From Candidatus Woesearchaeota archaeon (GTDB taxonomy: Archaea > Nanobdellota > Nanobdellia > SCGC-AAA011-G17 > GW2011-AR18), in NCBI GenBank assembly GCA_964430545.1, contig CAYSFG010000035.1:4463-68462 (forward strand): a DNA stretch of 64,000 nt, in the 5' to 3' direction. Under the pieces are notes generated by a model. It did no database searches. It was not told where the DNA came from and saw nothing but the letters and a program-made list of their open reading frames with translations. Made by a program: the position numbers and the translations under genes. Positions 1 to 10,583 of the stretch are shown here, one piece after another (positions within the stretch are counted from its first letter, which is position 1; each line of letters opens with the position of its first letter).

Positions 1-173
1 ATGCCTAAATCTTCAATCTTTTTTAATATATTCTTTCCAAGTCGAGTATCATTATTAATTTCTACATAAGCTATATTCCATGAATAGGTTTTATTATCGA
101 TAATCGCAATAATTTGTTCTCTTTCTGGTTCTGGTAGGTTTGCATATACTTTAAGAAATTTTTCTTTGCTCAT
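1..173 (-). CDS. hypothetical small protein, 5' part only (continues past window start)
   Basis: ATG at 173-171 on the minus strand is preceded by a GGAGAGGT ribosome-binding site (plus 178-185). The frame is open to the window edge (MSKEKFLKVYANLPEPEREQIIAIIDNKTYSWNIAYVEINNDTRLGKNILKKIEDLG...). It is not in the supplied ORF track because it has no in-window stop. Confidence 0.4.
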   Translation of the reverse strand, partial: MSKEKFLKVYANLPEPEREQIIAIIDNKTYSWNIAYVEINNDTRLGKNILKKIEDLG

Positions 174-242
174 AACCTCTCCTCTACTAAAAATTAATAA
201 GTTATAATACTATATAAACTCTATTGTTTATATCATTGTGGT

Positions 243-263
243 TGCTGAAAAGTAGCAAGGATT
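243..263. repeat. copy 1 of a 21-nt motif TTGCTGARAAGTRGCAAGRAT (5-bp stem TTGCT/AGCAA, 7-nt loop); candidate operator/promoter element
   Basis: Direct sequence match with 1611-1631. It lies 5 nt past the stop of CDS 267-950 and about 70 nt upstream of the start of the minus-strand CDS ending at 173. Confidence 0.5.
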
Positions 264-266
264 ATT

Positions 267-950
267 TTATTCTAATTTTAATATCGCTTCTAGGTGTTTT
301 TCAAATATTTTTTGTTCTATATATCCATGTACTCCTTGTAAGTTGTCTTTGAACTGTTTTGAATTTATTGTTTCTTTTATTTTTTCTAGTCTATCCTTTA
401 GTAAGTATCTATTTGATACTTCTTCTTTTATCCATTCTATTTTTTCTGCTTTAGGCATTAGCATGAATATGTCTCTTATGTCTGTGTTTCTGCAGCTTAT
501 CATTTTCATAACTATTAAAGCATCTATGTTTATTATTCTTAGTTTTAGTTCTTCGTTTATTGTTTTACCTCTTAATAATTTTAAGCTTGAATTTTTTATT
601 ATCCATTCTGATTCAAATGTTGCACTTGTTTGTCTGTCCAATACTTTATCAAATAATATGTCTATGCTTGCTTTAAAATTGTTTTCTAATGTTTTTTCAT
701 ACTTATAAAATTTTCCATGATAAGGCAAATCATTGTTTTCTTTAATTGATTCCTTATAATTTAATTTTAATAATTCTTTTATGATTCTATCTAATTCTTT
801 TTGTTCTTTAATTACAATATCGCAATCTATTGAGAATCTAGGAAGGGTATAAGCATTTACTGCATATCCTCCAATTATTACAAATTTAAATTTCTTTATT
901 GATTTTAATATTTTAAATATTTCTTTTTCTCTAATCTGTAGTTGATCCAT
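267..950 (-). CDS. AbiEii/AbiGii-like nucleotidyltransferase (type IV toxin-antitoxin / abortive-infection toxin family)
   Basis: N-terminal 'FVIIGGYAVNAYTLPRFSIDCDIV' fits the GG(T)A...R.S.D.D motif of the AbiEii-type nucleotidyltransferase. C-terminal 'DALIVMKMISCRNTDIRDIFML' fits the K..A...R..RD.YD motif. It overlaps the upstream gene by 20 nt, indicating operon coupling. Confidence 0.5.
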   Translation of the reverse strand: MDQLQIREKEIFKILKSIKKFKFVIIGGYAVNAYTLPRFSIDCDIVIKEQKELDRIIKELLKLNYKESIKENNDLPYHGKFYKYEKTLENNFKASIDILFDKVLDRQTSATFESEWIIKNSSLKLLRGKTINEELKLRIINIDALIVMKMISCRNTDIRDIFMLMPKAEKIEWIKEEVSNRYLLKDRLEKIKETINSKQFKDNLQGVHGYIEQKIFEKHLEAILKLE

Positions 951-1533
951 ATTTTTTCCTCATGTAATTATAGGCATAATTATACATATTATTATCTTTT
1001 GCTATTTTTAATGTGTTCTTTAATTTTTCTACCTTTAATTCATTTATTGTTTTATTTTCTATTTTCGTTACGGGTATTAATATTATATATTCTCCTATTG
1101 TTGATCCTTTATTGATATAATTAGGTACATTATATTTGTTGAAGAAGTTTTTCCAATAATTTAAATCTTTTTTTAATATTTTTATGAAGTATGGTGATTT
1201 TTCTATTCCCCTTTGTACATATGAGTAATCTGACCATATTTCAACAGCTGATAAGTTAGTGAATGCATATTGTTTATCTGATTTTTTTATTAATTCTGGT
1301 ACTTTAAATTCTAATAAATTTTTGAATATATTATTTGGTTCTAAGCATTTGTAAGTATTTTTTGATTCTTTTTTTATCCATCCAGAATTTAATAATAATG
1401 AAAATATTTTCTTCTTCATGCTATTGCCAACAATCCAGTCTAAATCAGATTGTTTGAATGATTCTATTGAACCATGCTTAGAGAAAAATAAAGCATAGGC
1501 TCTTAATCCAAATTGTGGTATCTCATTTATCAT
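931..1533 (-). CDS. hypothetical protein, putative cognate antitoxin/regulator of the downstream nucleotidyltransferase (AbiEi-like by position)
   Basis: 200-aa ORF translationally coupled to the AbiEii-like gene. I recognise no diagnostic motif; the call rests on gene order alone. Confidence 0.35.
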   Translation of the reverse strand: MINEIPQFGLRAYALFFSKHGSIESFKQSDLDWIVGNSMKKKIFSLLLNSGWIKKESKNTYKCLEPNNIFKNLLEFKVPELIKKSDKQYAFTNLSAVEIWSDYSYVQRGIEKSPYFIKILKKDLNYWKNFFNKYNVPNYINKGSTIGEYIILIPVTKIENKTINELKVEKLKNTLKIAKDNNMYNYAYNYMRKKYGSTTD

Positions 1534-1610
1534 AGTTACCTATTAGGTAACCTTATTTATATAACTTTCGTTTTCTAAACATGGTGCTGTTCTATATAAA
1601 TAAAGCATGA

Positions 1611-1631
1611 TTGCTGAGAAGTGGCAAGAAT
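1611..1631. repeat. copy 2 of the 21-nt motif TTGCTGARAAGTRGCAAGRAT (A->G substitutions keep the stem via G-U pairing)
   Basis: Lies 78 nt upstream of the start (1533) of the minus-strand two-gene module. Matches 243-263 at 18 of 21 positions, differing only by transitions. Confidence 0.5.
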
Positions 1632-1992
1632 AAAATTATGAATAATAAGTTTTATAACTTAGACAAAATCTAATAGTTCATAGAATTTCACTTTATTCCC
1701 CATTATTGTTATTAATTTTGCTCTGAACAAGATATTACTGATTATATGGTCTATTTTAAAATATTCATATGTTAAGTTATTGAATTTTAAGATGTTTCAT
1801 CAGAGTTGCGTCCACTATGCCTTTAGATGAAAGTTATACTATATTTTGTGCAGGAAAACATAAGACTTAAAACTATTTAAGTTAAGTATGGCAAATGTAT
1901 GTGCAGGAAAAGAACCATTTCCAATGCTAAGGCATCTGCCGTCGGCGTATAATTTTCTAAAACTTTAAATACTAAAAGAATATTTTTAATAT

Positions 1993-3753
1993 ATGGTTTT
2001 TTCATTATTAAATATACTAGGTTTATTTGGGTTATTATCATTAATACCTTTAATTATTTTATATTTAATAAAACCAAAACCTGATGTGCTAAAAGTTCCA
2101 TCATTAATGTTTTTTATGCAGAAAACAAAATCATCTAGAATACAATCATTATTTAGATATTTTGAAAGAGAATTATTATTTTTTTTACAATTATTAGTAT
2201 TATTATTACTATCATTAAGTTTGGCACAACCAATATTTACAATAAATAAAGATGCTATTTCAAACAATATTGTTTTTTTATTAGACACAAGTGCAAGTTC
2301 AAATGTTATAGAAGTTAATGGACAAACAAGATTAGAAATATCTAAGAATAAAATAAAAGAATTAGCAACAAACAGGAATTCATTAATATTAATAAAATCA
2401 ATTCCAACATTAGCATTAAAAAATGTAGGAAAATCAGAATTATTAAGATATTTAGATAAAATAAAAAGCACAGATGATTTAAGCGATATATCTTCCAGTA
2501 TAATTGCTGCAAGCGAACTAATAACAGAAGGAAAAGGAAGAATAATAGTTTTAAGTGATATGCACACAAGTAAAGGCATTTCCATAGAAACGGCAAGAAA
2601 TATAATTGAAGGAAAGGGAATACATGTTGATTTAATAAATACTGCATCTTATAATAGAAAAAATATAGGAATAATAAATTTATTAATAACAGAAGATAGT
2701 GCTAATTTATATATAAAAAATTATAATAAGAATCTAGAAAATGTTCAATTAAAAATAGGAAATAATCAAAAGATATTACAAATAAAACCAGGAAATACAG
2801 AACCTTATGTCTTTAAGTATAATGAAGGTGTAACTGAAATAAAAATAGAAAATAAAGATGATTTTAGCAATGATAATAAAGTGTATTTAGTAAAACCTTA
2901 TAATGAAACTGTAAAAGTATTATATATCAGCAATAGTCCTTCTAAATATATAAGTGCAGTATTAAATTCTATACCTGGATTAAAAATAACGTATTCAGAA
3001 CCTCCAATAATATCAAAAAATGATTATGATATATATATAATAAATAATATTGATTATAAAAATATACTTGCTGGAACATTAAATGAAATAAAAGAAAAAA
3101 TGGATAAAGGAAAAATAATTATTTTAACAGCACAATATGATTTAAATAAGTTAGACACAGGGTCATTAATAGGTAAATTTGATAATTTAAAAGATGGTGG
3201 AGAAATTAAAACAAATTTTGCAAGTACATTTACAAAAGATGTAGAATTCGGATATGTAAAGAAATATTATCCTATAAAAGAATTTAAAGGACAACAAATA
3301 GCTGTTGTAGAAAATGATACAATTATAGGAATAGATGAAAATCATGGAAAACTATTTTATTATGGATTGATAGATACTGAAAATGATTTTAAACTAAATC
3401 CAAGTTATCCTGTATTTTGGAATTCAATTATATCTTATTTATTAGGCAGATCAACAATAAATGAATTAAATTTACATACAGGGAATTATTTTTATATAGC
3501 AAATGAAAGTATATTATTGGATAAATCTGGTGTGTTTGATTTTGGAAAAAATAAGATAGCTGTAAATTTATTAAATGAAGAAGAATCAAATATTAATATT
3601 ATAACTAATGTTGGGGAAGTTAATAAAATAGATTCTAAACTTGAAAGCATAAAAACAAATGTTGATTATAAATTAGAATTTTATTTAATATTAATTGCAT
3701 TATTATTAATAGCTTTTGAGTTTTATTATATAAAAAGAAGAGGGGAATTATGA
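1993..3753 (+). CDS. BatA-like membrane protein with N-terminal double-TM 'aerotolerance' domain and a vWA domain
   Basis: N-terminus 'LLSLIPLIILYLIKPKP...RIQSLFRY' resembles the BatA N-terminal domain. vWA MIDAS-type motif 'VFLLDTSASS' (DxSxS). A C-terminal TM helix is followed by 'IKRRGE'. Confidence 0.6.
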   Translation: MVFSLLNILGLFGLLSLIPLIILYLIKPKPDVLKVPSLMFFMQKTKSSRIQSLFRYFERELLFFLQLLVLLLLSLSLAQPIFTINKDAISNNIVFLLDTSASSNVIEVNGQTRLEISKNKIKELATNRNSLILIKSIPTLALKNVGKSELLRYLDKIKSTDDLSDISSSIIAASELITEGKGRIIVLSDMHTSKGISIETARNIIEGKGIHVDLINTASYNRKNIGIINLLITEDSANLYIKNYNKNLENVQLKIGNNQKILQIKPGNTEPYVFKYNEGVTEIKIENKDDFSNDNKVYLVKPYNETVKVLYISNSPSKYISAVLNSIPGLKITYSEPPIISKNDYDIYIINNIDYKNILAGTLNEIKEKMDKGKIIILTAQYDLNKLDTGSLIGKFDNLKDGGEIKTNFASTFTKDVEFGYVKKYYPIKEFKGQQIAVVENDTIIGIDENHGKLFYYGLIDTENDFKLNPSYPVFWNSIISYLLGRSTINELNLHTGNYFYIANESILLDKSGVFDFGKNKIAVNLLNEEESNINIITNVGEVNKIDSKLESIKTNVDYKLEFYLILIALLLIAFEFYYIKRRGEL

Positions 3754-6131
3754 TATTAAATATAAATATAATTGATATAGCTTATAACTATTTTGAAAGA
3801 CCTTATGTTTTATTTATCTATTTATTTATTTTTATTGTATTAATATATTTAATTAATAAAAATTTTGTAGAATTGTCATTAGAAAATATAAAAAAAAGTA
3901 AATCTAAAAGATTATTTATATTCATATCAAGGGCTTTAGTATTTTTATTATTAATAATAGCATTAGCAGGACCTTTTATAGAAAAATCTAAAACAATACA
4001 TGGAGAACCCAGAATAAAAATATTAGTGGATAATTCAACATCTATGCAATTATATGACTTAAAAATAGCTGATAAACTTAAAATAGCATTAGAAAATAAA
4101 ATACCAACAGAAATAGAATATATTACATTTGGCGATAAATCGGCGATAGCAGATGCATTAATGGCAAATGTTAAAAAAAATGAAAATATATTATTAATAA
4201 GTGATGGAAATAATAATGTTGGAATTGAATTAGGTGACGTTGTTTTAAGAGCAAATGCATTAAATGCAACAATAAATGCTATAAAATTAAAATCGAAAAA
4301 TTATGATACTTCAATAAGTATTGCCGGAAGTGACAAGACAATAGCTGATGTAGAAAATACTTTTAAAGTAAGAATACAACAAACAGAAAAAAAACCACTA
4401 AGAGTAATAGTAGATGTAGATGGACAACAAATAATAAATAAAATTACAGATAAAGATTTTGATTTTAAACAAACTTTTATTTCCGGATATCATAAAATAA
4501 CTGCTAAAATAGATAATGTTGATTACTTTCCAGAAAATAGTGTTTATTATAAAACAATAAAAGTAGTGCCAAAACCTAAAATATTAATTATTGGAAAAGA
4601 AACTGATGAAATAGAAACATTGTTTAAACCAATATATGATGTTGTTATTATGGATAATATACCTGAAAATCTTAAAGACTATACTTCTTTAGTTATAGAT
4701 AATATTGACGCAAATGATTTAAATGATAAAACACATCAAATATCAAACTTTGTTGCAGAAGGAAATGGATTATTTGTTATTGGTGGTGGTAATTCTTTTG
4801 ATTCTGGAAATTATAAGGGCTCAAGATTTGAACAAATATTGCCAGCTTATGTGGCAAAAGCAGGAAAGAAAAGAGGAGAAACAAATATTGTATTTGTAAT
4901 AGATATAAGTGGAAGTACAGGACATAAATTTGGAGAATCAGTAAAAGTAGATGTAGAAAAAGCACTTGCAGTAGATATGATACAAAATTTAAGTTTAATA
5001 AATAATGTAGGTGCAGTAGCATTTAATACTTTAAGTTATAAACTTTCAGATATACAACCTTTAATATTAAATAAAAATAAAATGTTAGATATTATATCAA
5101 GATTAAAATATGATGGCGGTACATCTATAGGCCAGGGATTAGGGGCAGCTCTTGAAATGTTACAAGATAAAGGCGGAAGCAAGGACATAATTTTAATATC
5201 AGATGGAAAAAATCAAGATTTTGATGAAGCAAGAAATGCTGCAACTGTAGCTGGAAGTAAGGGAATAAGAATATATTCAGTAGGCGTAGGAGAAGATACA
5301 TATAAAGAAAATATGCAATGGTTTGCTGATATCACAGGAGGAACTTATTTTGAACCTGATTCTACAGATAGAATAAGAGTATTATTTGGAAATACACAAA
5401 GCGTAGGTAATAAAAAAATATTTCCTTTAGTTGTAATTGATAAACACCATTTTATAACAAATGAATTTAATCCAAAAGCAAGTCTCTATGGATATAACCA
5501 AATTGTACCAAGCAGCAGTGGAAAAGTATTAATAACAACAGATATTGGTGACCCTATATTAATTACAGGAAGATTAGGTCTTGGGAGAATAGTAGTATTA
5601 GCAACAGACTACAAACTTTATGGATTTGAATTATTAAACAAAGATAATTCATTATTAACAACAAGAACAATGAACTGGATAATAGGAGATCCAGAAAGAA
5701 AAAATGAAAAATATATAAATATACCTGATACAAGAGAAGATGAAGATGCTCAAATAACTATAAGATCAGAAGAACAACCAGTCTCAGATAATATAGCATT
5801 ATATAAAATAGATAATAAGTTGTATATGGGCAGTATAAGAATTGAAAAAAGAGGTTTTAATAGTGCATTAGGCGCAATATTTGCAGTAAACTATAAAAGA
5901 GAATATCAAAATATAATTATAAACCCTGAACTTGAAGAAATAGTAAAATCTACAAATGGAAGGATGTTTGAAGATAATCAAGTTGATGAAATAGTTGAAT
6001 ATGTTAAACAAAGATCTAATAGAGAGGAATTAAAAAAAGTTAATTATGCATGGATATTTGCTATGATTGCTTTAATAATTTATTTAACAGAAGTATGTAT
6101 AAGAAGAATAGCAAAAAATAAAAATTTATAA
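3750..6131 (+). CDS. membrane-anchored protein with two vWA domains (Bat-like)
   Basis: Two MIDAS motifs, 'ILVDNSTSM' and 'VFVIDISGSTG'. N- and C-terminal TM segments. The ATGA overlap with the upstream gene indicates an operon. Confidence 0.6.
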   Translation: MILNINIIDIAYNYFERPYVLFIYLFIFIVLIYLINKNFVELSLENIKKSKSKRLFIFISRALVFLLLIIALAGPFIEKSKTIHGEPRIKILVDNSTSMQLYDLKIADKLKIALENKIPTEIEYITFGDKSAIADALMANVKKNENILLISDGNNNVGIELGDVVLRANALNATINAIKLKSKNYDTSISIAGSDKTIADVENTFKVRIQQTEKKPLRVIVDVDGQQIINKITDKDFDFKQTFISGYHKITAKIDNVDYFPENSVYYKTIKVVPKPKILIIGKETDEIETLFKPIYDVVIMDNIPENLKDYTSLVIDNIDANDLNDKTHQISNFVAEGNGLFVIGGGNSFDSGNYKGSRFEQILPAYVAKAGKKRGETNIVFVIDISGSTGHKFGESVKVDVEKALAVDMIQNLSLINNVGAVAFNTLSYKLSDIQPLILNKNKMLDIISRLKYDGGTSIGQGLGAALEMLQDKGGSKDIILISDGKNQDFDEARNAATVAGSKGIRIYSVGVGEDTYKENMQWFADITGGTYFEPDSTDRIRVLFGNTQSVGNKKIFPLVVIDKHHFITNEFNPKASLYGYNQIVPSSSGKVLITTDIGDPILITGRLGLGRIVVLATDYKLYGFELLNKDNSLLTTRTMNWIIGDPERKNEKYINIPDTREDEDAQITIRSEEQPVSDNIALYKIDNKLYMGSIRIEKRGFNSALGAIFAVNYKREYQNIIINPELEEIVKSTNGRMFEDNQVDEIVEYVKQRSNREELKKVNYAWIFAMIALIIYLTEVCIRRIAKNKNL

Positions 6132-6153
6132 ACTTTAAAAATGATATAATAAC

Positions 6154-6630
6154 ATGGGATTCATAGACTATAATGCAAATTTGGGATTATTTATACTGAT
6201 AATATTAATATCAGGAATAGCAATAGGACTTACTGTATTTTATCAAGCAAATTTTAAAGATATAAATTATAAATATGATACTAAAATAAGTGAATTAAAT
6301 AAAACATTTGAAAAATTATTAGGAACACAAGATGTATTAAACAAAACAAAAGAAGAACTAGATCTAAAAGCAAAAAGAGAAGAAGATTTATCAGGAAAAT
6401 ATACATCAACAAAAGAACAAAAAGAAAGACTACAAACAGAAAATTCAGGATTATCAAAAGATTTAGCAAACACAAGATCACAAGTTGATATACTTAAAGC
6501 ACAGATAGACCAATTAAATTTGAATATAGTTAGTTTACAAACAACAATATCAGATTTAACAAGCCAAAAAAATAATCTAAATACTATAGTAAACTGCTAC
6601 AGGAGTGCAGCACCAAATGCAAATTGTTGA
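6154..6630 (+). CDS. membrane-anchored coiled-coil protein
   Basis: N-terminal TM helix followed by a long heptad-like stretch rich in E/K/L/Q; lies in the Bat-like operon. Confidence 0.45.
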   Translation: MGFIDYNANLGLFILIILISGIAIGLTVFYQANFKDINYKYDTKISELNKTFEKLLGTQDVLNKTKEELDLKAKREEDLSGKYTSTKEQKERLQTENSGLSKDLANTRSQVDILKAQIDQLNLNIVSLQTTISDLTSQKNNLNTIVNCYRSAAPNANC

Positions 6631-7393
6631 AAAAGCATTAAGAGAAATAAAACTTATGATTTATATATTTGATATTGGCAATTTACTACTTAATACATTT
6701 ATAATATTTATGATAATTTTAATATTTACAATATTATTTAATTTTAAATGGTATTTTGCTTTACTAAGTTTAGTATATTTAATATATTTTATTATAAGAG
6801 AAATTAAAAAAAATAAATATTATATTGTAGAAAATAAAGTAAGAGATTTAAGAGAAAGATTAACAACAGTAGCTGATAATTTGTATAAAACTAATCCTAT
6901 AGTTGATTCTTTAAAAGAAGATGTTGTAAAAGATATAAAAAAAATCAAAACATCTTATTTTATAGATTATAATACATTAACCAGCAGATTGATAATATTT
7001 GGATCATTAACTTTTATTGTTGTATTATTAGCTTTTTTAAGTGTGAAATTTGATTTTCAGGGATTTAAACTACCAGAAGTTAATATTGTTACAAATAGAG
7101 GATTTATTAATCAAACAGAAAATTTAAAATTTAGCTTGTCAGAAGGTAACTTAACTGATATATTAGGAAATAAATCAATAGCTGAATTAGGAAAAAAAGA
7201 ATTAAAATTAACAATAAACCCATTAGAAAGTGATACTAATTTAAATGTTATAAAACAAACTCAAAAAGAAGACTTTAATAGCCCAGATTTTCCAAAAGAA
7301 ATATATACAAGATATGATAGATCATATCAAGAAAAAATAGCTAAAGAAAACCAGAAAATAGTTAAAGATTATTTTGAAAAAATAACAAGGTGA
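6605..7393 (+). CDS. membrane protein (hypothetical, Bat-operon member)
   Basis: Several hydrophobic segments; overlaps the upstream gene; same strand and operon as MoxR. Confidence 0.4.
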   Translation: MQHQMQIVEKALREIKLMIYIFDIGNLLLNTFIIFMIILIFTILFNFKWYFALLSLVYLIYFIIREIKKNKYYIVENKVRDLRERLTTVADNLYKTNPIVDSLKEDVVKDIKKIKTSYFIDYNTLTSRLIIFGSLTFIVVLLAFLSVKFDFQGFKLPEVNIVTNRGFINQTENLKFSLSEGNLTDILGNKSIAELGKKELKLTINPLESDTNLNVIKQTQKEDFNSPDFPKEIYTRYDRSYQEKIAKENQKIVKDYFEKITR

Positions 7394-7397
7394 AAAA

Positions 7398-9722
7398 ATG
7401 GTAAGTATGGAAGAAATACAAAAAAAATTTAAATTGATAAACTCTGAAGTTTCTAAAGTTGTAATTGGACAGGATAAAGTTGTTGAACAATTATTAGTAG
7501 CATTATTATGTAATGGGCATGTTTATTTAGAAGGATATCCGGGATTAGCAAAAACATTATTAGTAAAAACAATATCAAATATAATGGATTTAAAATTCTC
7601 AAGAATACAAGGTACACCAGACTTATTACCTAGTGATGTAACTGGAACTTATATAATAGATGAAAGCAAAGGAAAAAAAGAGTTTAAATTTCAACCAGGA
7701 CCAATATTTGCAAATATAATATTATTAGATGAAGTTAATAGAGCCACCCCTAAGACCCATTCATCAATATTAGAAGCAATGCAAGAAAGACAAGTAACTG
7801 TAGGAAATGCAACATATAAATTAGAAGAACCGTTCTTTGTATTAGCAACTGGAAATCCTATTGAGCAAGAAGGAAGCTTAACATTAGATCAATCAGTTTT
7901 TATAAATGGAGAATTAAAAACAGGACATGAATTATTAGAACAAGTTAAAAATAATAATACCCAAATATTAAAAAATGGAGATTTTGATTTATATAAACTT
8001 GAAGATTCATATACATATTCTTTAAATTCTAATGGAAAACTTAAGAAAAGTGAATGTTATCTTTATACTTTGCCTTATGATGATGAAATTATAAAGGTAA
8101 AAACTAGAATTGGAAGAGAAATTAAAGTTTCTAAAAATCATCCTTTTTTAATAAATGAAAAAGGAGAAATAAAATGGAAGAAAGCAGAAGAACTAATTGA
8201 AGGAGATTATTTAGTTACACCGGCAGCATTAAATGATGAGTATCATACAGAAGAAGTAGTTTCACATTTAGGTATATTAAATGAATTAAATAAAAAGTAT
8301 AAAATAATAAAATATGAAGAATATTTAAAATTAAAAGAACATAAAGAAATAAGCTTACCATCTTGGATATTAAATTTAAACTCTGAACTAAGAAAAGAAT
8401 TTTTGAAAACATTTATTTCATTAGAAGGATGCATAAGAGATAATATGATAAAAGTTTCACAAGCAAATAAAAATAACATTAATATTTTATCTTATTTATT
8501 ATTAAAAGAGGGTATAATTTCATTGTTTTTTGAAAAGAAGAAAAAAAATCATAGTGATTATGTAATAAAAATACAAGGAGAAGACTTTTTAAAATATTTA
8601 TTAAATATAGGATGGCTAAACGAAGAAACAAGAATTGAATGGTTAAATAGAGCAAAAAATGGAAAATTTTCATCTTTCAGAGTAATACCTACACCAAGAA
8701 ATCTTGTATTAAGACTTGTAAATTTATTAGGAATAAATTTAGTTCATACATACAAAAATCGAAAAAACTTTGTTAATAGGGAATGGTATTGTGGATATAA
8801 ATCTATAAAAGAAGGAAGAGAAAATATTTCCTTAGATATGTTTAAATTAATGCTTAATGGAATGGAAAAGGAGATAAATCTTAGAAATAATGTTGATTTA
8901 AATAATATTTCTAAGTCAAAAGATATAAAAAATACGGCGATTTTATGTGGCTTATCTATTAAAGATATTGAAACAAATATTAACATACCTTTTAATAAAA
9001 TTTCTAATTATTATGAAAATAATAATAGCAAACATTCACAACAAATAATAACTTGTGTTAAAAATGAATTTTTAAACAGACTCGAAGAAGCAAAATCTAT
9101 ATTAAACTATTTAAAAAAATTAGCAACAGAAGAAGTGTTATATGACAAAATAGAAAAATTATCTTATGAACCATATAATGGATTAATATTTGGATTGACA
9201 GTTCCAGGATTGCAGAATTATATTGGAGGTTATGGTGCTTGTGGTATTAATCATAATACTTTTAAATTATCAGAGGCACAAGTTGATAGATTTTTATTTA
9301 AAATAAATGTAGAATATCCTAAAATAGAAGAAGAATTAGAAATAGTTAGTAAATACAGTGAAATAACACCAGCTGAGATAAAAATAAAAACAGTATTTAC
9401 AAGTGAAGAATTAATAAAACTACAATCTTATGCAAAACAAATACCTATAGCAAAAGATATATTAAAATATGCTGTAGATTTAGTTGTTAGTACAAGAAAT
9501 AATAAACAATTAATTGAATATGGGGCAAGTCCAAGAGCTAGCATATCTTTAATAATGGCTGGAAAAGCAAGAGCATTAATTAATGGAAGAAAATATGTAA
9601 GTAAAGATGATATTAATGTAATGGCCTTACCTGTATTAAGACACAGAATAATAATCAGCTTTGAAGCAGAAAGACAAAATATGACAGAAGACGATGTGAT
9701 AACTAAATTAATTAAGAAATAA
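7398..9722 (+). CDS. MoxR-family AAA+ ATPase interrupted by an intein
   Basis: Walker A 'GYPGLAKT'. The extein junctions rejoin to '...ATGNPIEQEG|TFKLSEAQVDRF...', which resembles the conserved MoxR block NPIEQEGTYPLPEAQLDRF. The protein is 774 aa against about 310-320 aa expected for MoxR. Confidence 0.85.
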   Translation: MVSMEEIQKKFKLINSEVSKVVIGQDKVVEQLLVALLCNGHVYLEGYPGLAKTLLVKTISNIMDLKFSRIQGTPDLLPSDVTGTYIIDESKGKKEFKFQPGPIFANIILLDEVNRATPKTHSSILEAMQERQVTVGNATYKLEEPFFVLATGNPIEQEGSLTLDQSVFINGELKTGHELLEQVKNNNTQILKNGDFDLYKLEDSYTYSLNSNGKLKKSECYLYTLPYDDEIIKVKTRIGREIKVSKNHPFLINEKGEIKWKKAEELIEGDYLVTPAALNDEYHTEEVVSHLGILNELNKKYKIIKYEEYLKLKEHKEISLPSWILNLNSELRKEFLKTFISLEGCIRDNMIKVSQANKNNINILSYLLLKEGIISLFFEKKKKNHSDYVIKIQGEDFLKYLLNIGWLNEETRIEWLNRAKNGKFSSFRVIPTPRNLVLRLVNLLGINLVHTYKNRKNFVNREWYCGYKSIKEGRENISLDMFKLMLNGMEKEINLRNNVDLNNISKSKDIKNTAILCGLSIKDIETNINIPFNKISNYYENNNSKHSQQIITCVKNEFLNRLEEAKSILNYLKKLATEEVLYDKIEKLSYEPYNGLIFGLTVPGLQNYIGGYGACGINHNTFKLSEAQVDRFLFKINVEYPKIEEELEIVSKYSEITPAEIKIKTVFTSEELIKLQSYAKQIPIAKDILKYAVDLVVSTRNNKQLIEYGASPRASISLIMAGKARALINGRKYVSKDDINVMALPVLRHRIIISFEAERQNMTEDDVITKLIKK
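7875..9257 (+). mobile_element. intein (461 aa) with probable LAGLIDADG-type homing endonuclease domain inside the MoxR ATPase
   Basis: Block A 'SLTLDQSVFINGE' begins immediately after EQEG. Block B-like 'KVSKNHPFL'. Endonuclease-like 'FLKTFISLEGCI'. C-terminal 'GINHN' is followed by Thr (+1). Removing the insert restores a contiguous MoxR. Confidence 0.75.
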
Positions 9723-9731
9723 ATTCAGTCT

Positions 9732-10583
9732 ATGGTAATACAAACAGATTTTCTAAGACAATTGGATAAATTTAACTTAGTAATACATAAAAAAGTAGCA
9801 TCAGGTTTTATTGGCGATAGAAGAGCAAATTTTACAGGATCAGGATTAATATTTAAAGATTATTCAACTTATGTACCAGGAGATGATTTTAAACATATAG
9901 ATTGGCTAGTTTATGGGAAGACAGATAAATTATATGTGAAAAGATATGAAGAAGATAGAAACTTAACAATACATATATTATTAGATATAAGTGGAAGCAT
10001 GAATTTTGGAACTAAAATTAAAAAATATGAATTTGGGAGTATGATAGCATTAGGATTTAGTTATATAGCAATGAAAAATAATGAAAAATTTGTATTAAGT
10101 ACATTTGATGATAAATTAGAATTTTTTAAACCAAAAAAAGGAGCAAGACAATTAGCTGCAATATTAAATTATTTAAATAGTAAAACAGCAAAGGGAATAA
10201 GCAGCTTTGAGCAATCATTAATTAGTTATAAAAGTTTAGTAAACTCAAGAGCAATGATTATAATAATATCAGATTTTTTTTATGATATAGAACAAATAAA
10301 GACAATATTACATAAGTATAAGAATAATAAAATAAAATTAATACAGGTTTTAGATTCAGTAGAAAAAAAAATGAATTTAGATGGAGAATATAATTTAGTT
10401 GATCTTGAAAGTGATAATAAAATGCATACTTATATAGATCCATTAGTAAGACAAGAATATTTAAAAAGATTAGAAGAACATAATACTAAAATAATAAATT
10501 CTTGTGCTGAAGTTAAAGCAGACTTTTATACTGTTAATAATGAAGAAAACATATTTGATGTATTTTATAGAATATTAAATTAA
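9732..10583 (+). CDS. DUF58 family protein (vWA-like, MoxR partner)
   Basis: 'YVPGDDFKHIDWLVYGKTDKLYVKRYEEDRNLTIHILLDISGSM' matches the DUF58 signature; lies immediately downstream of MoxR. Confidence 0.75.
   Translation: MVIQTDFLRQLDKFNLVIHKKVASGFIGDRRANFTGSGLIFKDYSTYVPGDDFKHIDWLVYGKTDKLYVKRYEEDRNLTIHILLDISGSMNFGTKIKKYEFGSMIALGFSYIAMKNNEKFVLSTFDDKLEFFKPKKGARQLAAILNYLNSKTAKGISSFEQSLISYKSLVNSRAMIIIISDFFYDIEQIKTILHKYKNNKIKLIQVLDSVEKKMNLDGEYNLVDLESDNKMHTYIDPLVRQEYLKRLEEHNTKIINSCAEVKADFYTVNNEENIFDVFYRILN

What the first reader, a model, noticed from the sequence alone, without database searches (positions are those of the whole stretch)
267..1533. Translationally coupled two-gene module resembling an AbiEi/AbiEii type IV toxin-antitoxin (abortive infection) pair
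The downstream gene (267-950) carries both signature blocks of the AbiEii/AbiGii nucleotidyltransferase toxins: an N-terminal GG-x-A...R-x-S-x-D-x-D block and a C-terminal K..A...R..RD.YD block. It overlaps a 200-aa upstream gene by 20 nt. I recognise no family for the upstream protein. It could be a divergent AbiEi-type antitoxin or a new partner for this toxin family in an AT-rich archaeon. This is the only obvious defence or addiction-type locus in the window.
Basis: partly seen in the sequence, partly recalled or inferred. Interest (0 to 1): 0.5.

Follow-up and report, generated by a model that had tools for sequence, protein, structure and literature searches.

The report
Archaeal AbiE-like toxin–antitoxin gene pair
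Two overlapping genes in a DPANN archaeon most likely encode a nucleotidyltransferase toxin and a repressor–antitoxin of the known AbiE/MenAT kind, so this is a divergent archaeal branch of a known system and not a new one.

Summary
Two minus-strand ORFs, A (931-1533, 200 aa) and B (267-950, 227 aa), overlap by 20 nt.

B is a DUF6036/AbiEii-clan nucleotidyltransferase. Its only solved relative by sequence is MenT1. The catalytic GG...R-x-S-x-D-x-D block and a K/R/DxxD block are invariant across 32 homologues.

A has no family at sequence level. A confident AlphaFold model (pLDDT 91.7) shows an N-terminal winged helix plus a C-terminal nucleotidyltransferase-like domain with no conserved acidic residues. 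This is the AbiEi architecture, and it has the same structural neighbours that were published for AbiEi.

The pair is conserved as a unit in more than 140 DPANN loci. A 17-bp palindrome, GTTACCTAWTAGGTAAC, lies between the TATA box and the start codon of A in 129 of 130 loci and nowhere else in 805 kb of flanks. B was never found without A, whereas A occurs with B lost or broken.

Neighbouring genes differ between genomes, and other toxin–antitoxin pairs often sit next to it. Homologous pairs lie beside parA on haloarchaeal plasmids.

Verdict: a new, unannotated archaeal member of a known toxin–antitoxin kind. Toxicity and mechanism are inferred by analogy. The repeat-bounded cassette structure around the pair is unexplained.

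The parts
931..1533 (-). Gene A, 200 aa: AbiEi-like repressor-antitoxin. [quoted passage not shown]
267..950 (-). Gene B, 227 aa: MenT1/AbiEii-like (DUF6036) nucleotidyltransferase, the putative toxin. Key residues are G27 G28, R38, S40 (phosphoacceptor position), D42, D44, D97, K149, R154, D157 and D160.
   Evidence: The segment 'PRFSIDCD' aligns with MenT1 'PRFTRDVD'. The pattern R-x-[ST]-x-D-x-D equals AbiEii R63/T65/D67/D69 (PMC3985639; preprint).
931..950 (-). The 20-nt overlap between the end of A and the start of B, suggesting translational coupling.
   Evidence: The same 20-nt overlap is found in most related loci and a 14-nt overlap in a second group of loci.
958..961 (-). Shine-Dalgarno-like GAGG inside gene A, with seven bases between it and the ATG of B.
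   Evidence: Sequence. GAGG or GGAG lies at -18..-4 in 55 of 91 loci, against 7.3% of random 15-nt windows inside gene A.
1535..1551 (.). Perfect 17-bp palindrome GTTACCTATTAGGTAAC, the putative operator. It ends 1 nt before the ATG of A.
   Evidence: It is the only copy in the window. It is present with at most 3 mismatches in 129 of 130 non-identical loci and is perfect in 85. It ends 1 nt before the ATG in 79 loci. No other copy with at most 1 mismatch occurs in 805 kb of flanking DNA.
1553..1570 (-). TATA-like box (minus strand TTATATAAATAA, 1553-1564) preceded by CGAAAG (1565-1570). This is the putative archaeal promoter of a leaderless A-B transcript.
   Evidence: Sequence. A TATA-like box within 20 nt upstream of the palindrome is found in 126 of 129 loci, mostly with a gap of 3-6 nt. 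Promoter function is inferred.
242..259 (+). Downstream copy of a hairpin-containing direct repeat (TTGCTGAAAAGTAGCAAG) that bounds the module.
   Evidence: Only two copies occur in 64 kb, where 0.11 are expected. Homology with the closest relative, L007, ends at window 260.
1611..1628 (+). Upstream copy of the same repeat (TTGCTGAGAAGTGGCAAG).
   Evidence: Homology with L007 ends at window 1628.

Best explanation
This is a two-gene toxin-antitoxin module of the AbiE/MenAT (DUF1814-superfamily nucleotidyltransferase) kind, carried on a small mobile cassette in a DPANN (Woesearchaeota-type) archaeon.

Shown by the tools:
- B is a MenT1/AbiEii-like nucleotidyltransferase with an intact active site.
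- A has the AbiEi architecture: a winged helix plus a nucleotidyltransferase-like domain with no conserved acidic residues.
- The genes overlap and are inherited as a unit.
- A conserved palindrome lies between the TATA box and the start codon of A.

Inferred by analogy with AbiE and MenAT:
- B adds nucleotides to the 3' CCA end of tRNAs and so blocks charging and translation.
- The C-terminal domain of A binds B. It either occludes the active site or makes B phosphorylate its own invariant Ser40, which switches B off (type VII logic).
- A dimer of the winged helix of A binds the palindrome and represses the leaderless A-B transcript.
- The overlap and the internal Shine-Dalgarno-like motif tie B synthesis to A synthesis.
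- The biological role is stabilisation of the cassette or island, antiviral abortive infection, or both.
For: B:
- Pfam DUF6036 above cut-off and AbiEii 0.6 bit below it.
- PADLOC AbiEii, E = 5e-6.
- MenT1 is the only real PDB hit, E = 1.7e-5, and 'PRFS' aligns with 'PRFT'.
- Catalytic and phosphoacceptor residues are invariant.

A:
- Model pLDDT 91.7.
- These are the same neighbours published for AbiEi (PMC7319586).
- Three distant relatives, tested one by one, touch Pfam AbiEi_4 at 16.6-22.5 bits, all below the cut-off of 25.

Genomic logic:
- Operator present in 129 of 130 loci and exclusive to this promoter.
- B lost or broken in 7 of about 77 loci found through A. A missing in 0 of 65 loci found through B. 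Fisher p = 0.016.
- Neighbouring genes differ between genomes.
- Adjacent cassettes are HEPN-MNT by Pfam, and MazEF-like and NYN-like by my reading of their translations.
- Distant relatives of A also precede AbiEii/DUF6036-like nucleotidyltransferases.
- On Haloarcula plasmid pNG600 both partners are homologous (hhalign 99.4% and 99.1%) and lie beside parA.

Mechanistic precedent.
Against: - No experiment exists. Toxicity, neutralisation, the target and DNA binding are all inferred.
- The window's B scores below the PF08843 gathering cut-off.
- A is more conserved than B in 135 of 138 loci. I would expect the toxin, not the antitoxin, to be the more conserved partner, but I did not check this against other toxin-antitoxin families.
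- The loss asymmetry is modest. It falls to p = 0.07 if the one partial A is counted, and some frameshifts may be assembly errors.
Confidence: 0.78

Rival explanations
1. This is a dedicated transcription factor plus a non-toxic nucleotidyltransferase with a physiological job, such as RNA, tRNA or small-molecule modification. In that case it would be a regulated enzyme operon, not a toxin-antidote pair.
For: Sequence conservation is very high: A averages 68.8% and B 59.1% identity to the window proteins across orders. The regulator is the more conserved partner. Both genes are intact in about 90% of loci. DUF6036 has no tested function.
Against: The C-terminal domain of A is a nucleotidyltransferase-like fold with no conserved acidic residues, as in AbiEi, and not a typical ligand sensor. 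Genomic context is variable and the pair co-locates with HEPN-MNT and MazEF-like cassettes. The module is exchanged as a 1.37-kb unit between genomes that share nothing else in the DNA compared. B never occurs without A. Relatives lie next to parA on plasmids.
Confidence: 0.12
2. A is itself an active enzyme that covalently modifies B, as MNT antitoxins AMPylate HEPN toxins. It would not be a passive binder or inducer.
Against: No G[GS] or DxD equivalent and no conserved acidic residue is found across the diverse alignment. The only invariant or nearly invariant positions are L47, G51, A96, W100, W127, G147, L152, P154 and V168. AbiEi itself does not bind nucleotides (preprint).
Confidence: 0.05
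3. The pair is a gene cassette of an integron-like or other site-specific cassette-capture system, with the flanking repeats acting as recombination sites. The toxin-antitoxin function then serves to stabilise the array. This reading is compatible with the best explanation and concerns how the module moves.
For: The module is bracketed by the only two copies of a hairpin repeat in 64 kb. Homology to L007 stops at the repeats. L007 has a HEPN-MNT cassette between two further copies. L077 and L034 have 4 repeat copies separating cassettes. Seven of 64 loci exceed the 99th percentile of a cross-locus null. Archaeal integrons with toxin-antitoxin cassettes are known in Nanoarchaeota (PMC9668308).
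Against: The repeats do not form extended attC-like hairpins; z-scores are -0.5 to -2.6 for most and slightly positive (up to +0.6) for three. By eye I saw no RYYYAAC/GTTRRRY core in the copies I inspected. No integrase was sought or found. Some repeats lie in coding sequence (L053, L014). Most loci show no significant flanking repeat.
Confidence: 0.15

Closest known systems
AbiEi-AbiEii of Streptococcus agalactiae / Lactococcus lactis (AbiE; type IV, reclassified type VII in a 2026 preprint)
   Same: Bicistronic and overlapping, with the antitoxin first. The antitoxin is a winged helix plus a nucleotidyltransferase-like C-terminal domain. The toxin is a pol-beta-type nucleotidyltransferase with GG...R-x-[ST]-x-D-x-D and K/R/DxxD motifs. 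Inverted repeats lie in the promoter.
   Different: A has no detectable sequence similarity to AbiEi. B is shorter (227 aa; the tagged AbiEii weighs about 33 kDa) and has 13 residues between the GG and the first Asp, where AbiEii has 15. Motifs III and IV are compressed. There is one 17-bp palindrome between an archaeal TATA box and a leaderless start, in place of two 23-bp repeats in a bacterial promoter. The overlap is 20 nt, not 4. The host is a DPANN archaeon.
MenA1-MenT1 (and MenA3-MenT3) of Mycobacterium tuberculosis
   Same: MenT1 is the only solved protein that B matches by sequence, with 'PRFT/S-x-D-x-D-IVV' shared. It is a short, minimal toxin with the phosphoacceptor at the same position. 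MenT toxins add nucleotides to tRNA 3' ends.
   Different: From my recollection, not checked here, MenT1's partner MenA1 is a small protein and not a two-domain AbiEi-like repressor. The pairing of a MenT1-like short toxin with an AbiEi-like antitoxin is what sets this family apart.
Unstudied HTH + nucleotidyltransferase pairs on haloarchaeal plasmids (e.g. Haloarcula marismortui pNG600, WP_011222400.1 / WP_011222399.1)
   Same: Both partners are homologous to A and B (hhalign 99.4% and 99.1%). The gene order is the same and the genes overlap (4 nt).
   Different: Identity is only about 17-28%. They are plasmid-borne and lie next to parA. They are annotated only as HTH or nucleotidyltransferase family proteins, and their function has not been tested.
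HEPN-MNT type VII toxin-antitoxin modules
   Same: They are small two-gene cassettes that involve a nucleotidyltransferase fold and often a winged helix. They are found directly beside the A-B pair in L004 and L007.
   Different: In HEPN-MNT the nucleotidyltransferase is the active antitoxin and HEPN is the toxin. Here the active nucleotidyltransferase is the putative toxin, and the nucleotidyltransferase-like domain of A lacks catalytic residues.

Membership tests
AbiE / MenAT (DUF1814-superfamily nucleotidyltransferase toxin-antitoxin) | Bicistronic operon with the antitoxin gene first and the genes overlapping | tested here: met
   A at 931-1533 and B at 267-950 share 20 nt. The order is conserved, and the overlap is 20 or 14 nt in most loci. 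S. agalactiae abiE overlaps by 4 nt. Co-transcription was not tested.
AbiE / MenAT (DUF1814-superfamily nucleotidyltransferase toxin-antitoxin) | Toxin motifs I and II: hG[GS]-x(9-15)-D-h-D, with an Arg inside motif II | tested here: met
   I26-G27-G28, 13 residues, D42-C-D44, with R38. All are invariant in 32 homologues. Definition from PMC3985639.
AbiE / MenAT (DUF1814-superfamily nucleotidyltransferase toxin-antitoxin) | Toxin motif III (KLxAaxxR) and motif IV (+DxxD) | tested here: inconclusive
   B has K149-MISC-R154 (K-x4-R, where the motif is K-x6-R) and T156-D157-I-R-D160 (DxxD preceded by T, not K/R). The K, R and both D residues are invariant, but the spacing departs from the definition.
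AbiE / MenAT (DUF1814-superfamily nucleotidyltransferase toxin-antitoxin) | Toxin reaches the Pfam AbiEii (PF08843) gathering score | tested here: not met
   21.9 bits against a cut-off of 22.5. DUF6036 (PF19502) passes with 26.1 against 23.6. Many homologues carry a precomputed PF08843 hit.
AbiE / MenAT (DUF1814-superfamily nucleotidyltransferase toxin-antitoxin) | Ser/Thr phosphoacceptor two residues before the first catalytic Asp (MenT1 T39, MenT3 S78, AbiEii T65) | tested here: met
   S40 is invariant. It aligns with the Thr of MenT1 'PRFTRDVD'. The AbiEii pattern is R63-x-T65-x-D67-x-D69. Phosphorylation itself cannot be tested here.
AbiE / MenAT (DUF1814-superfamily nucleotidyltransferase toxin-antitoxin) | [quoted passage not shown] | tested here: met
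AbiE / MenAT (DUF1814-superfamily nucleotidyltransferase toxin-antitoxin) | Antitoxin C-terminal domain with the AbiEi core fold (nucleotidyltransferase-like) | tested here: met
AbiE / MenAT (DUF1814-superfamily nucleotidyltransferase toxin-antitoxin) | Antitoxin matches a Pfam AbiEi family (e.g. PF13338) or a solved AbiEi by sequence | tested here: not met
   No hit for the window protein. Profile searches of the PDB miss 6y8q and 1zel. Only distant relatives touch PF13338, at up to 22.5 bits against a cut-off of 25.
AbiE / MenAT (DUF1814-superfamily nucleotidyltransferase toxin-antitoxin) | Inverted repeats in the promoter that are bound by the antitoxin (negative autoregulation) | tested here: inconclusive
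   The sequence feature is present: a 17-bp palindrome in 129 of 130 loci, exclusive to this promoter. Binding and repression cannot be tested with these tools.
AbiE / MenAT (DUF1814-superfamily nucleotidyltransferase toxin-antitoxin) | Toxin inhibits growth and the antitoxin neutralises it; abortive-infection phenotype | not testable with these tools
   Only indirect support: B never occurs without A (0 of 65), while A occurs with B lost or broken (7 of about 77).
Integron gene cassette (attC-bounded) | attC site: an imperfect, extended hairpin of 55-140 nt with RYYYAAC ... GTTRRRY cores | tested here: not met
   The flanking repeats fold weakly, with z from -2.6 to +0.6, and show only a 5-10 bp local stem. 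By eye I saw no core-site consensus in the copies I inspected.
Integron gene cassette (attC-bounded) | Integron integrase (IntI) in the genome or adjacent to the array | not tested
   The window's other ORFs were not screened for tyrosine recombinases.
HEPN-MNT-type module (active nucleotidyltransferase as antitoxin) | Catalytic G[GS] ... DxD in the nucleotidyltransferase domain of the antitoxin | tested here: not met
   No conserved acidic residue or GS motif is found in the C-terminal domain of A across alignment A3.

The most novel reading that the evidence does not exclude
The A-B pair is one cassette of a previously undescribed cassette-exchange system in DPANN archaea. In it, small toxin-antitoxin and defence modules (A-B, HEPN-MNT, MazEF-like, NYN) are separated by genome-specific, short hairpin-containing repeats that are not attC-like. 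These modules move as units between genomes through recombination at the repeats. The L007 junction, which carries the 3' end of B in front of the hairpin, would then be the scar of a circular intermediate.
Probability: 0.12. Interest if true: 0.6.

Novelty: new member of a known kind. Interest (0 to 1): 0.3.

Why it matters
The finding extends the AbiE/MenAT nucleotidyltransferase toxin-antitoxin kind to DPANN archaea, and through homologous pairs to haloarchaeal plasmids.

It identifies an archaeal antitoxin family that current annotation misses. Public records call its members 'hypothetical', 'HTH domain', 'MarR', 'Lrp' or even 'sigma-70'.

It offers a clean, testable archaeal autoregulation model: one perfect palindrome between the TATA box and a leaderless start codon, conserved in about 130 loci.

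It also shows that genome-reduced DPANN cells keep and exchange such modules. None of this overturns existing ideas. The mechanism is borrowed from bacterial relatives.

Tried and rejected
- SerRS lead: A hits archaeal SerRS PRK00960 at E = 4.5e-5. This was tempting because MenT3 targets tRNA-Ser. Only 2 of 29 family members give the hit, and the score is 22 bits against a cut-off of 611, so I rejected it as chance or composition.
- Rfam scan of 1-2200: only a sub-threshold snoRNA hit inside gene A. No tRNA genes in the window.
- First structure model, built from close homologues only: poor, pLDDT 62.6. It was replaced by a model from a diverse alignment.
- PDB sequence searches with profiles of A: nothing.
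- Foldseek against the PDB: no hit below E = 1e-3. The afdb50 library was unavailable.
- The second wHTH + DUF6036 pair in L004 is not detectably related to A.
- IMG/VR scan: no copy on 2.9 million viral contigs, so the module is not virus-borne.
- attC/integron reading of the flanking repeats: not supported by folding.
- The exact hairpin motif of the window occurs only in the window and in L007, not in the other 80 or so loci.
- A search seeded with distant relatives returned no protein named AbiEi.
Full report
**1. The observation**

The mechanical ORF list shows two minus-strand ORFs. Gene A spans 931..1533 (200 aa, ATG) and gene B spans 267..950 (227 aa, ATG). They share positions 931-950, so the 20-nt overlap is real.

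B carries I26-G27-G28 ... In an alignment of 32 homologues with 56-100% identity, G27, G28, R38, S40, D42, D44, D97, K149, R154, D157 and D160 are all invariant.

The actual string is K149-MISC-R154-NT-D157-IR-D160. This is a compressed variant of AbiEii motifs III (KLxAaxxR) and IV (+DxxD) as defined by Dy et al. 2014 (PMC3985639).

**2. What B is**

- Pfam places B in DUF6036 (26.1 bits, cut-off 23.6) and 0.6 bit below the AbiEii PF08843 cut-off (21.9 against 22.5).
- PADLOC's AbiEii models hit at E = 5e-6.
- A profile of the family finds one meaningful solved relative, M. tuberculosis MenT1 (8an4), at E = 1.7e-5. 'viGGyavnaytlPrfsvdcdivv' aligns with 'LVGGFAVSARSEPRFTRDVDIVV'.
- The invariant S40 therefore sits where MenT1 carries the only Thr of that segment. 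The published phosphoacceptor is T39. The one-residue numbering offset is my inference.
- S40 also matches the AbiEii pattern R63-x-T65-x-D67-x-D69.

B is thus a short, MenT1-like member of the AbiEii/DUF1814-DUF6036 nucleotidyltransferase group with an intact active site.

**3. What A is**

A has no Pfam, PADLOC or PDB sequence relative. A nominally significant NCBIfam hit to archaeal SerRS appears in only 2 of 29 family members, and I dismiss it.

The family is abundant but forms a tight island in sequence space:
- About 1000 clusters at 90% identity, nearly all of about 200 aa, and 68-77% identical among the 120 best listed.
- Only 75 representatives at 50% clustering among 1.84 billion proteins, most of them fragments.

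Adding the few full-length distant relatives (19-35% identity) gave a diverse alignment. This raised the AlphaFold2 model from pLDDT 62.6 to 91.7, with pTM 0.79.

The model has a winged helix (helices 7-20, 28-31 and 37-49; wing 53-63), two linker helices, and an alpha/beta domain (89-195).

Across the diverse alignment no acidic residue or G[GS] motif is conserved in this domain, so it is unlikely to be catalytic. AbiEi itself does not bind nucleotides (preprint). Three distant relatives, tested one by one, touch Pfam AbiEi_4 over the winged helix at 16.6-22.5 bits, below the cut-off of 25.

Conclusion: A has the AbiEi architecture at fold level and is not a member of the AbiEi families at sequence level.

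**4. The module as a unit**

In 80 species-level DPANN genomes found through A (Woesearchaeota, Pacearchaeota and Nanoarchaeia labels), B follows A directly. The overlap is 20 nt in most loci and 14 nt in a second group.

Exceptions among these loci:
- B absent in L003, L061 and L070.
- A 36-residue remnant of B in L028.
- B split by frameshift or stop in L019, L024 and L054.

In 65 metagenome loci found through B that have enough upstream DNA, 64 have a full A and one has A residues 11-199. None lacks A.

The asymmetry is 7 of about 77 against 0 of 65, Fisher p = 0.016. It falls to p = 0.07 if the partial A is counted. This is what a toxin-antidote pair predicts, but the evidence is modest, and some frameshifts may be assembly errors.

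A GAGG/GGAG motif lies 4-18 nt upstream of B's ATG in 55 of 91 loci, against 7.3% of random 15-nt windows in gene A. This is consistent with coupled internal initiation.

**5. The promoter**

Directly upstream of A lies a perfect palindrome, GTTACCTATTAGGTAAC (window 1535-1551). It is preceded by a TATA-like box (1553-1564) and CGAAAG.

Across 130 non-identical loci:
- 129 have the palindrome with at most 3 mismatches, and 85 are perfect.
- 126 have a TATA-like box within 20 nt upstream, mostly 3-6 nt away.
- In 79 loci the palindrome ends 1 nt before the ATG, which implies a leaderless transcript.
- No second copy with at most 1 mismatch occurs in 805 kb of flanking DNA, and the window has only this one copy.

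A site between TATA box and start that is exclusive to its own promoter is the expected footprint of autorepression by the winged helix of A. It parallels AbiEi and Rv2827c binding to inverted repeats. Binding itself is inferred.

**6. Context and mobility**

Neighbouring genes differ between genomes. In the window the pair abuts a BatA/vWA/MoxR/DUF58 cluster.

The closest relative, L007, has A 94% and B 93% identical. It shares 1,370 nt at 92.8% with window 260-1628, plus a 110-nt stretch of the adjoining upstream flank (82.7%) and a 37-nt copy of the repeat, and nothing else of its 6.7 kb. The main homology block ends at the only two copies in 64 kb of an 18-nt hairpin-containing repeat, at 242-259 and 1611-1628, where 0.11 copies are expected.

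In L007 a HEPN + wHTH-MNT cassette lies between two further copies of the repeat. The copy in front of A carries the last 12 nt of gene B ahead of the hairpin.

Other loci have unrelated flanking direct repeats of 29-148 nt. Seven of 64 exceed the 99th percentile of a cross-locus null. L077 has four copies separating four cassettes; by my reading of their translations these are MazEF-like, NYN-like, MNT-like and A-B.

The repeats do not fold like attC sites. No copy of the module occurs on IMG/VR viral contigs. Integrons with toxin-antitoxin cassettes are known in Nanoarchaeota (PMC9668308), but I cannot file these repeats there. The means of mobilisation remains unexplained.

**7. Wider family**

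Distant relatives of A (P0246, P0265, P0295) also precede AbiEii/DUF6036/NTP_transf_5-like nucleotidyltransferases of 225-236 aa.

On haloarchaeal plasmids such as Haloarcula marismortui pNG600, an HTH protein (224 aa) and a nucleotidyltransferase (231 aa) overlap by 4 nt and lie next to parA. Both are homologous to A and B (hhalign 99.4%, E = 2.5e-21; and 99.1%, E = 1.3e-18).

Public names for this partner family are 'HTH domain', 'MarR', 'Lrp' and 'sigma-70', never AbiEi.

**8. Mechanism and verdict**

Most likely (confidence about 0.78) this is an AbiE/MenAT-type toxin-antitoxin module.

The following steps are inferred by analogy with bacterial relatives and are not shown here:
- B nucleotidylates tRNA 3' ends, as MenT1, MenT3 and AbiEii do.
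- The C-terminal domain of A binds B and triggers autophosphorylation of S40 or occludes the active site.
- A represses its own leaderless promoter through the palindrome.

Rivals:
- A regulated non-toxic enzyme operon (0.12).
- A as an active modifying enzyme (0.05).
- An integron-like cassette (0.15), which concerns how the module moves and is compatible with the main reading.

One odd feature remains. A is more conserved than B in 135 of 138 loci.

Novelty: a new, unannotated archaeal member of a known kind. Interest is modest at 0.3. The repeat-bounded cassette arrays are the most novel thread and deserve a separate look.

Noticed in passing
window 242-259 and 1611-1628; L007 739-756 and 1980-1997: An 18-nt hairpin-containing direct repeat brackets the A-B module exactly and marks the limits of homology with the closest relative. 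In L007 the same repeat also brackets a HEPN-MNT cassette, and one copy is preceded by the last 12 nt of gene B. This suggests movement of cassettes at these sites.
   Followed up: partly
L077 283-4789; L034 2343-6923; L014 2715-5470: Arrays of small cassettes are separated by 3-4 copies of genome-specific repeats of 45-148 nt. By my reading of the translations the cassettes include MazEF-like, NYN-domain and wHTH-MNT genes and AAA+ ATPase-like proteins of 422 and 437 aa, alongside A-B. The L077 and L034 repeats share the core TTTTTGATATACTTTGTGTAAAC. They are not attC-like when folded.
   Followed up: partly
window 7398-9722 (+): A MoxR-type AAA_3 ATPase gene is interrupted by an intein (Pfam Intein_splicing over residues 204-620). 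It lies inside a BatA / vWA / DUF58 cluster spanning 1993-10583.
   Followed up: no
window 3-173 (-): The start of a gene cut off by the window edge (MSKEKFLKVYANLPEPEREQ...), with GGAGAGG ending two bases before the ATG. It has no family hit. It lies just beyond the downstream repeat and could be the next cassette.
   Followed up: partly
L004 5523-7890: Directly upstream of the A-B pair in another Woesearchaeota genome lie a second, unrelated wHTH (208 aa) + DUF6036 nucleotidyltransferase (232 aa) pair and a HEPN + MNT pair. This is a small toxin-antitoxin island.
   Followed up: partly
L172 (Haloarcula marismortui pNG600, NC_006394.1 6997-8363); L173 (Natrinema versiforme pNVE500): An HTH (224 aa) + nucleotidyltransferase (231 aa) pair homologous to A and B lies beside parA on haloarchaeal plasmids. 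It is 78-96% conserved across many genera and is annotated only generically.
   Followed up: partly
window 931-1533 versus 267-950, and 138 related loci: The putative antitoxin is more conserved than the putative toxin in 135 of 138 paired loci (68.8% against 59.1% identity to the window proteins). I would have expected the opposite for a toxin-antitoxin pair, but did not check that expectation.
   Followed up: no
window 1552-1992: The intergenic region between the divergent gene A and the BatA-like gene is about 460 bp, which is unusually long. Rfam finds no RNA there. It contains the upstream repeat copy and a second TATA-like stretch.
   Followed up: partly
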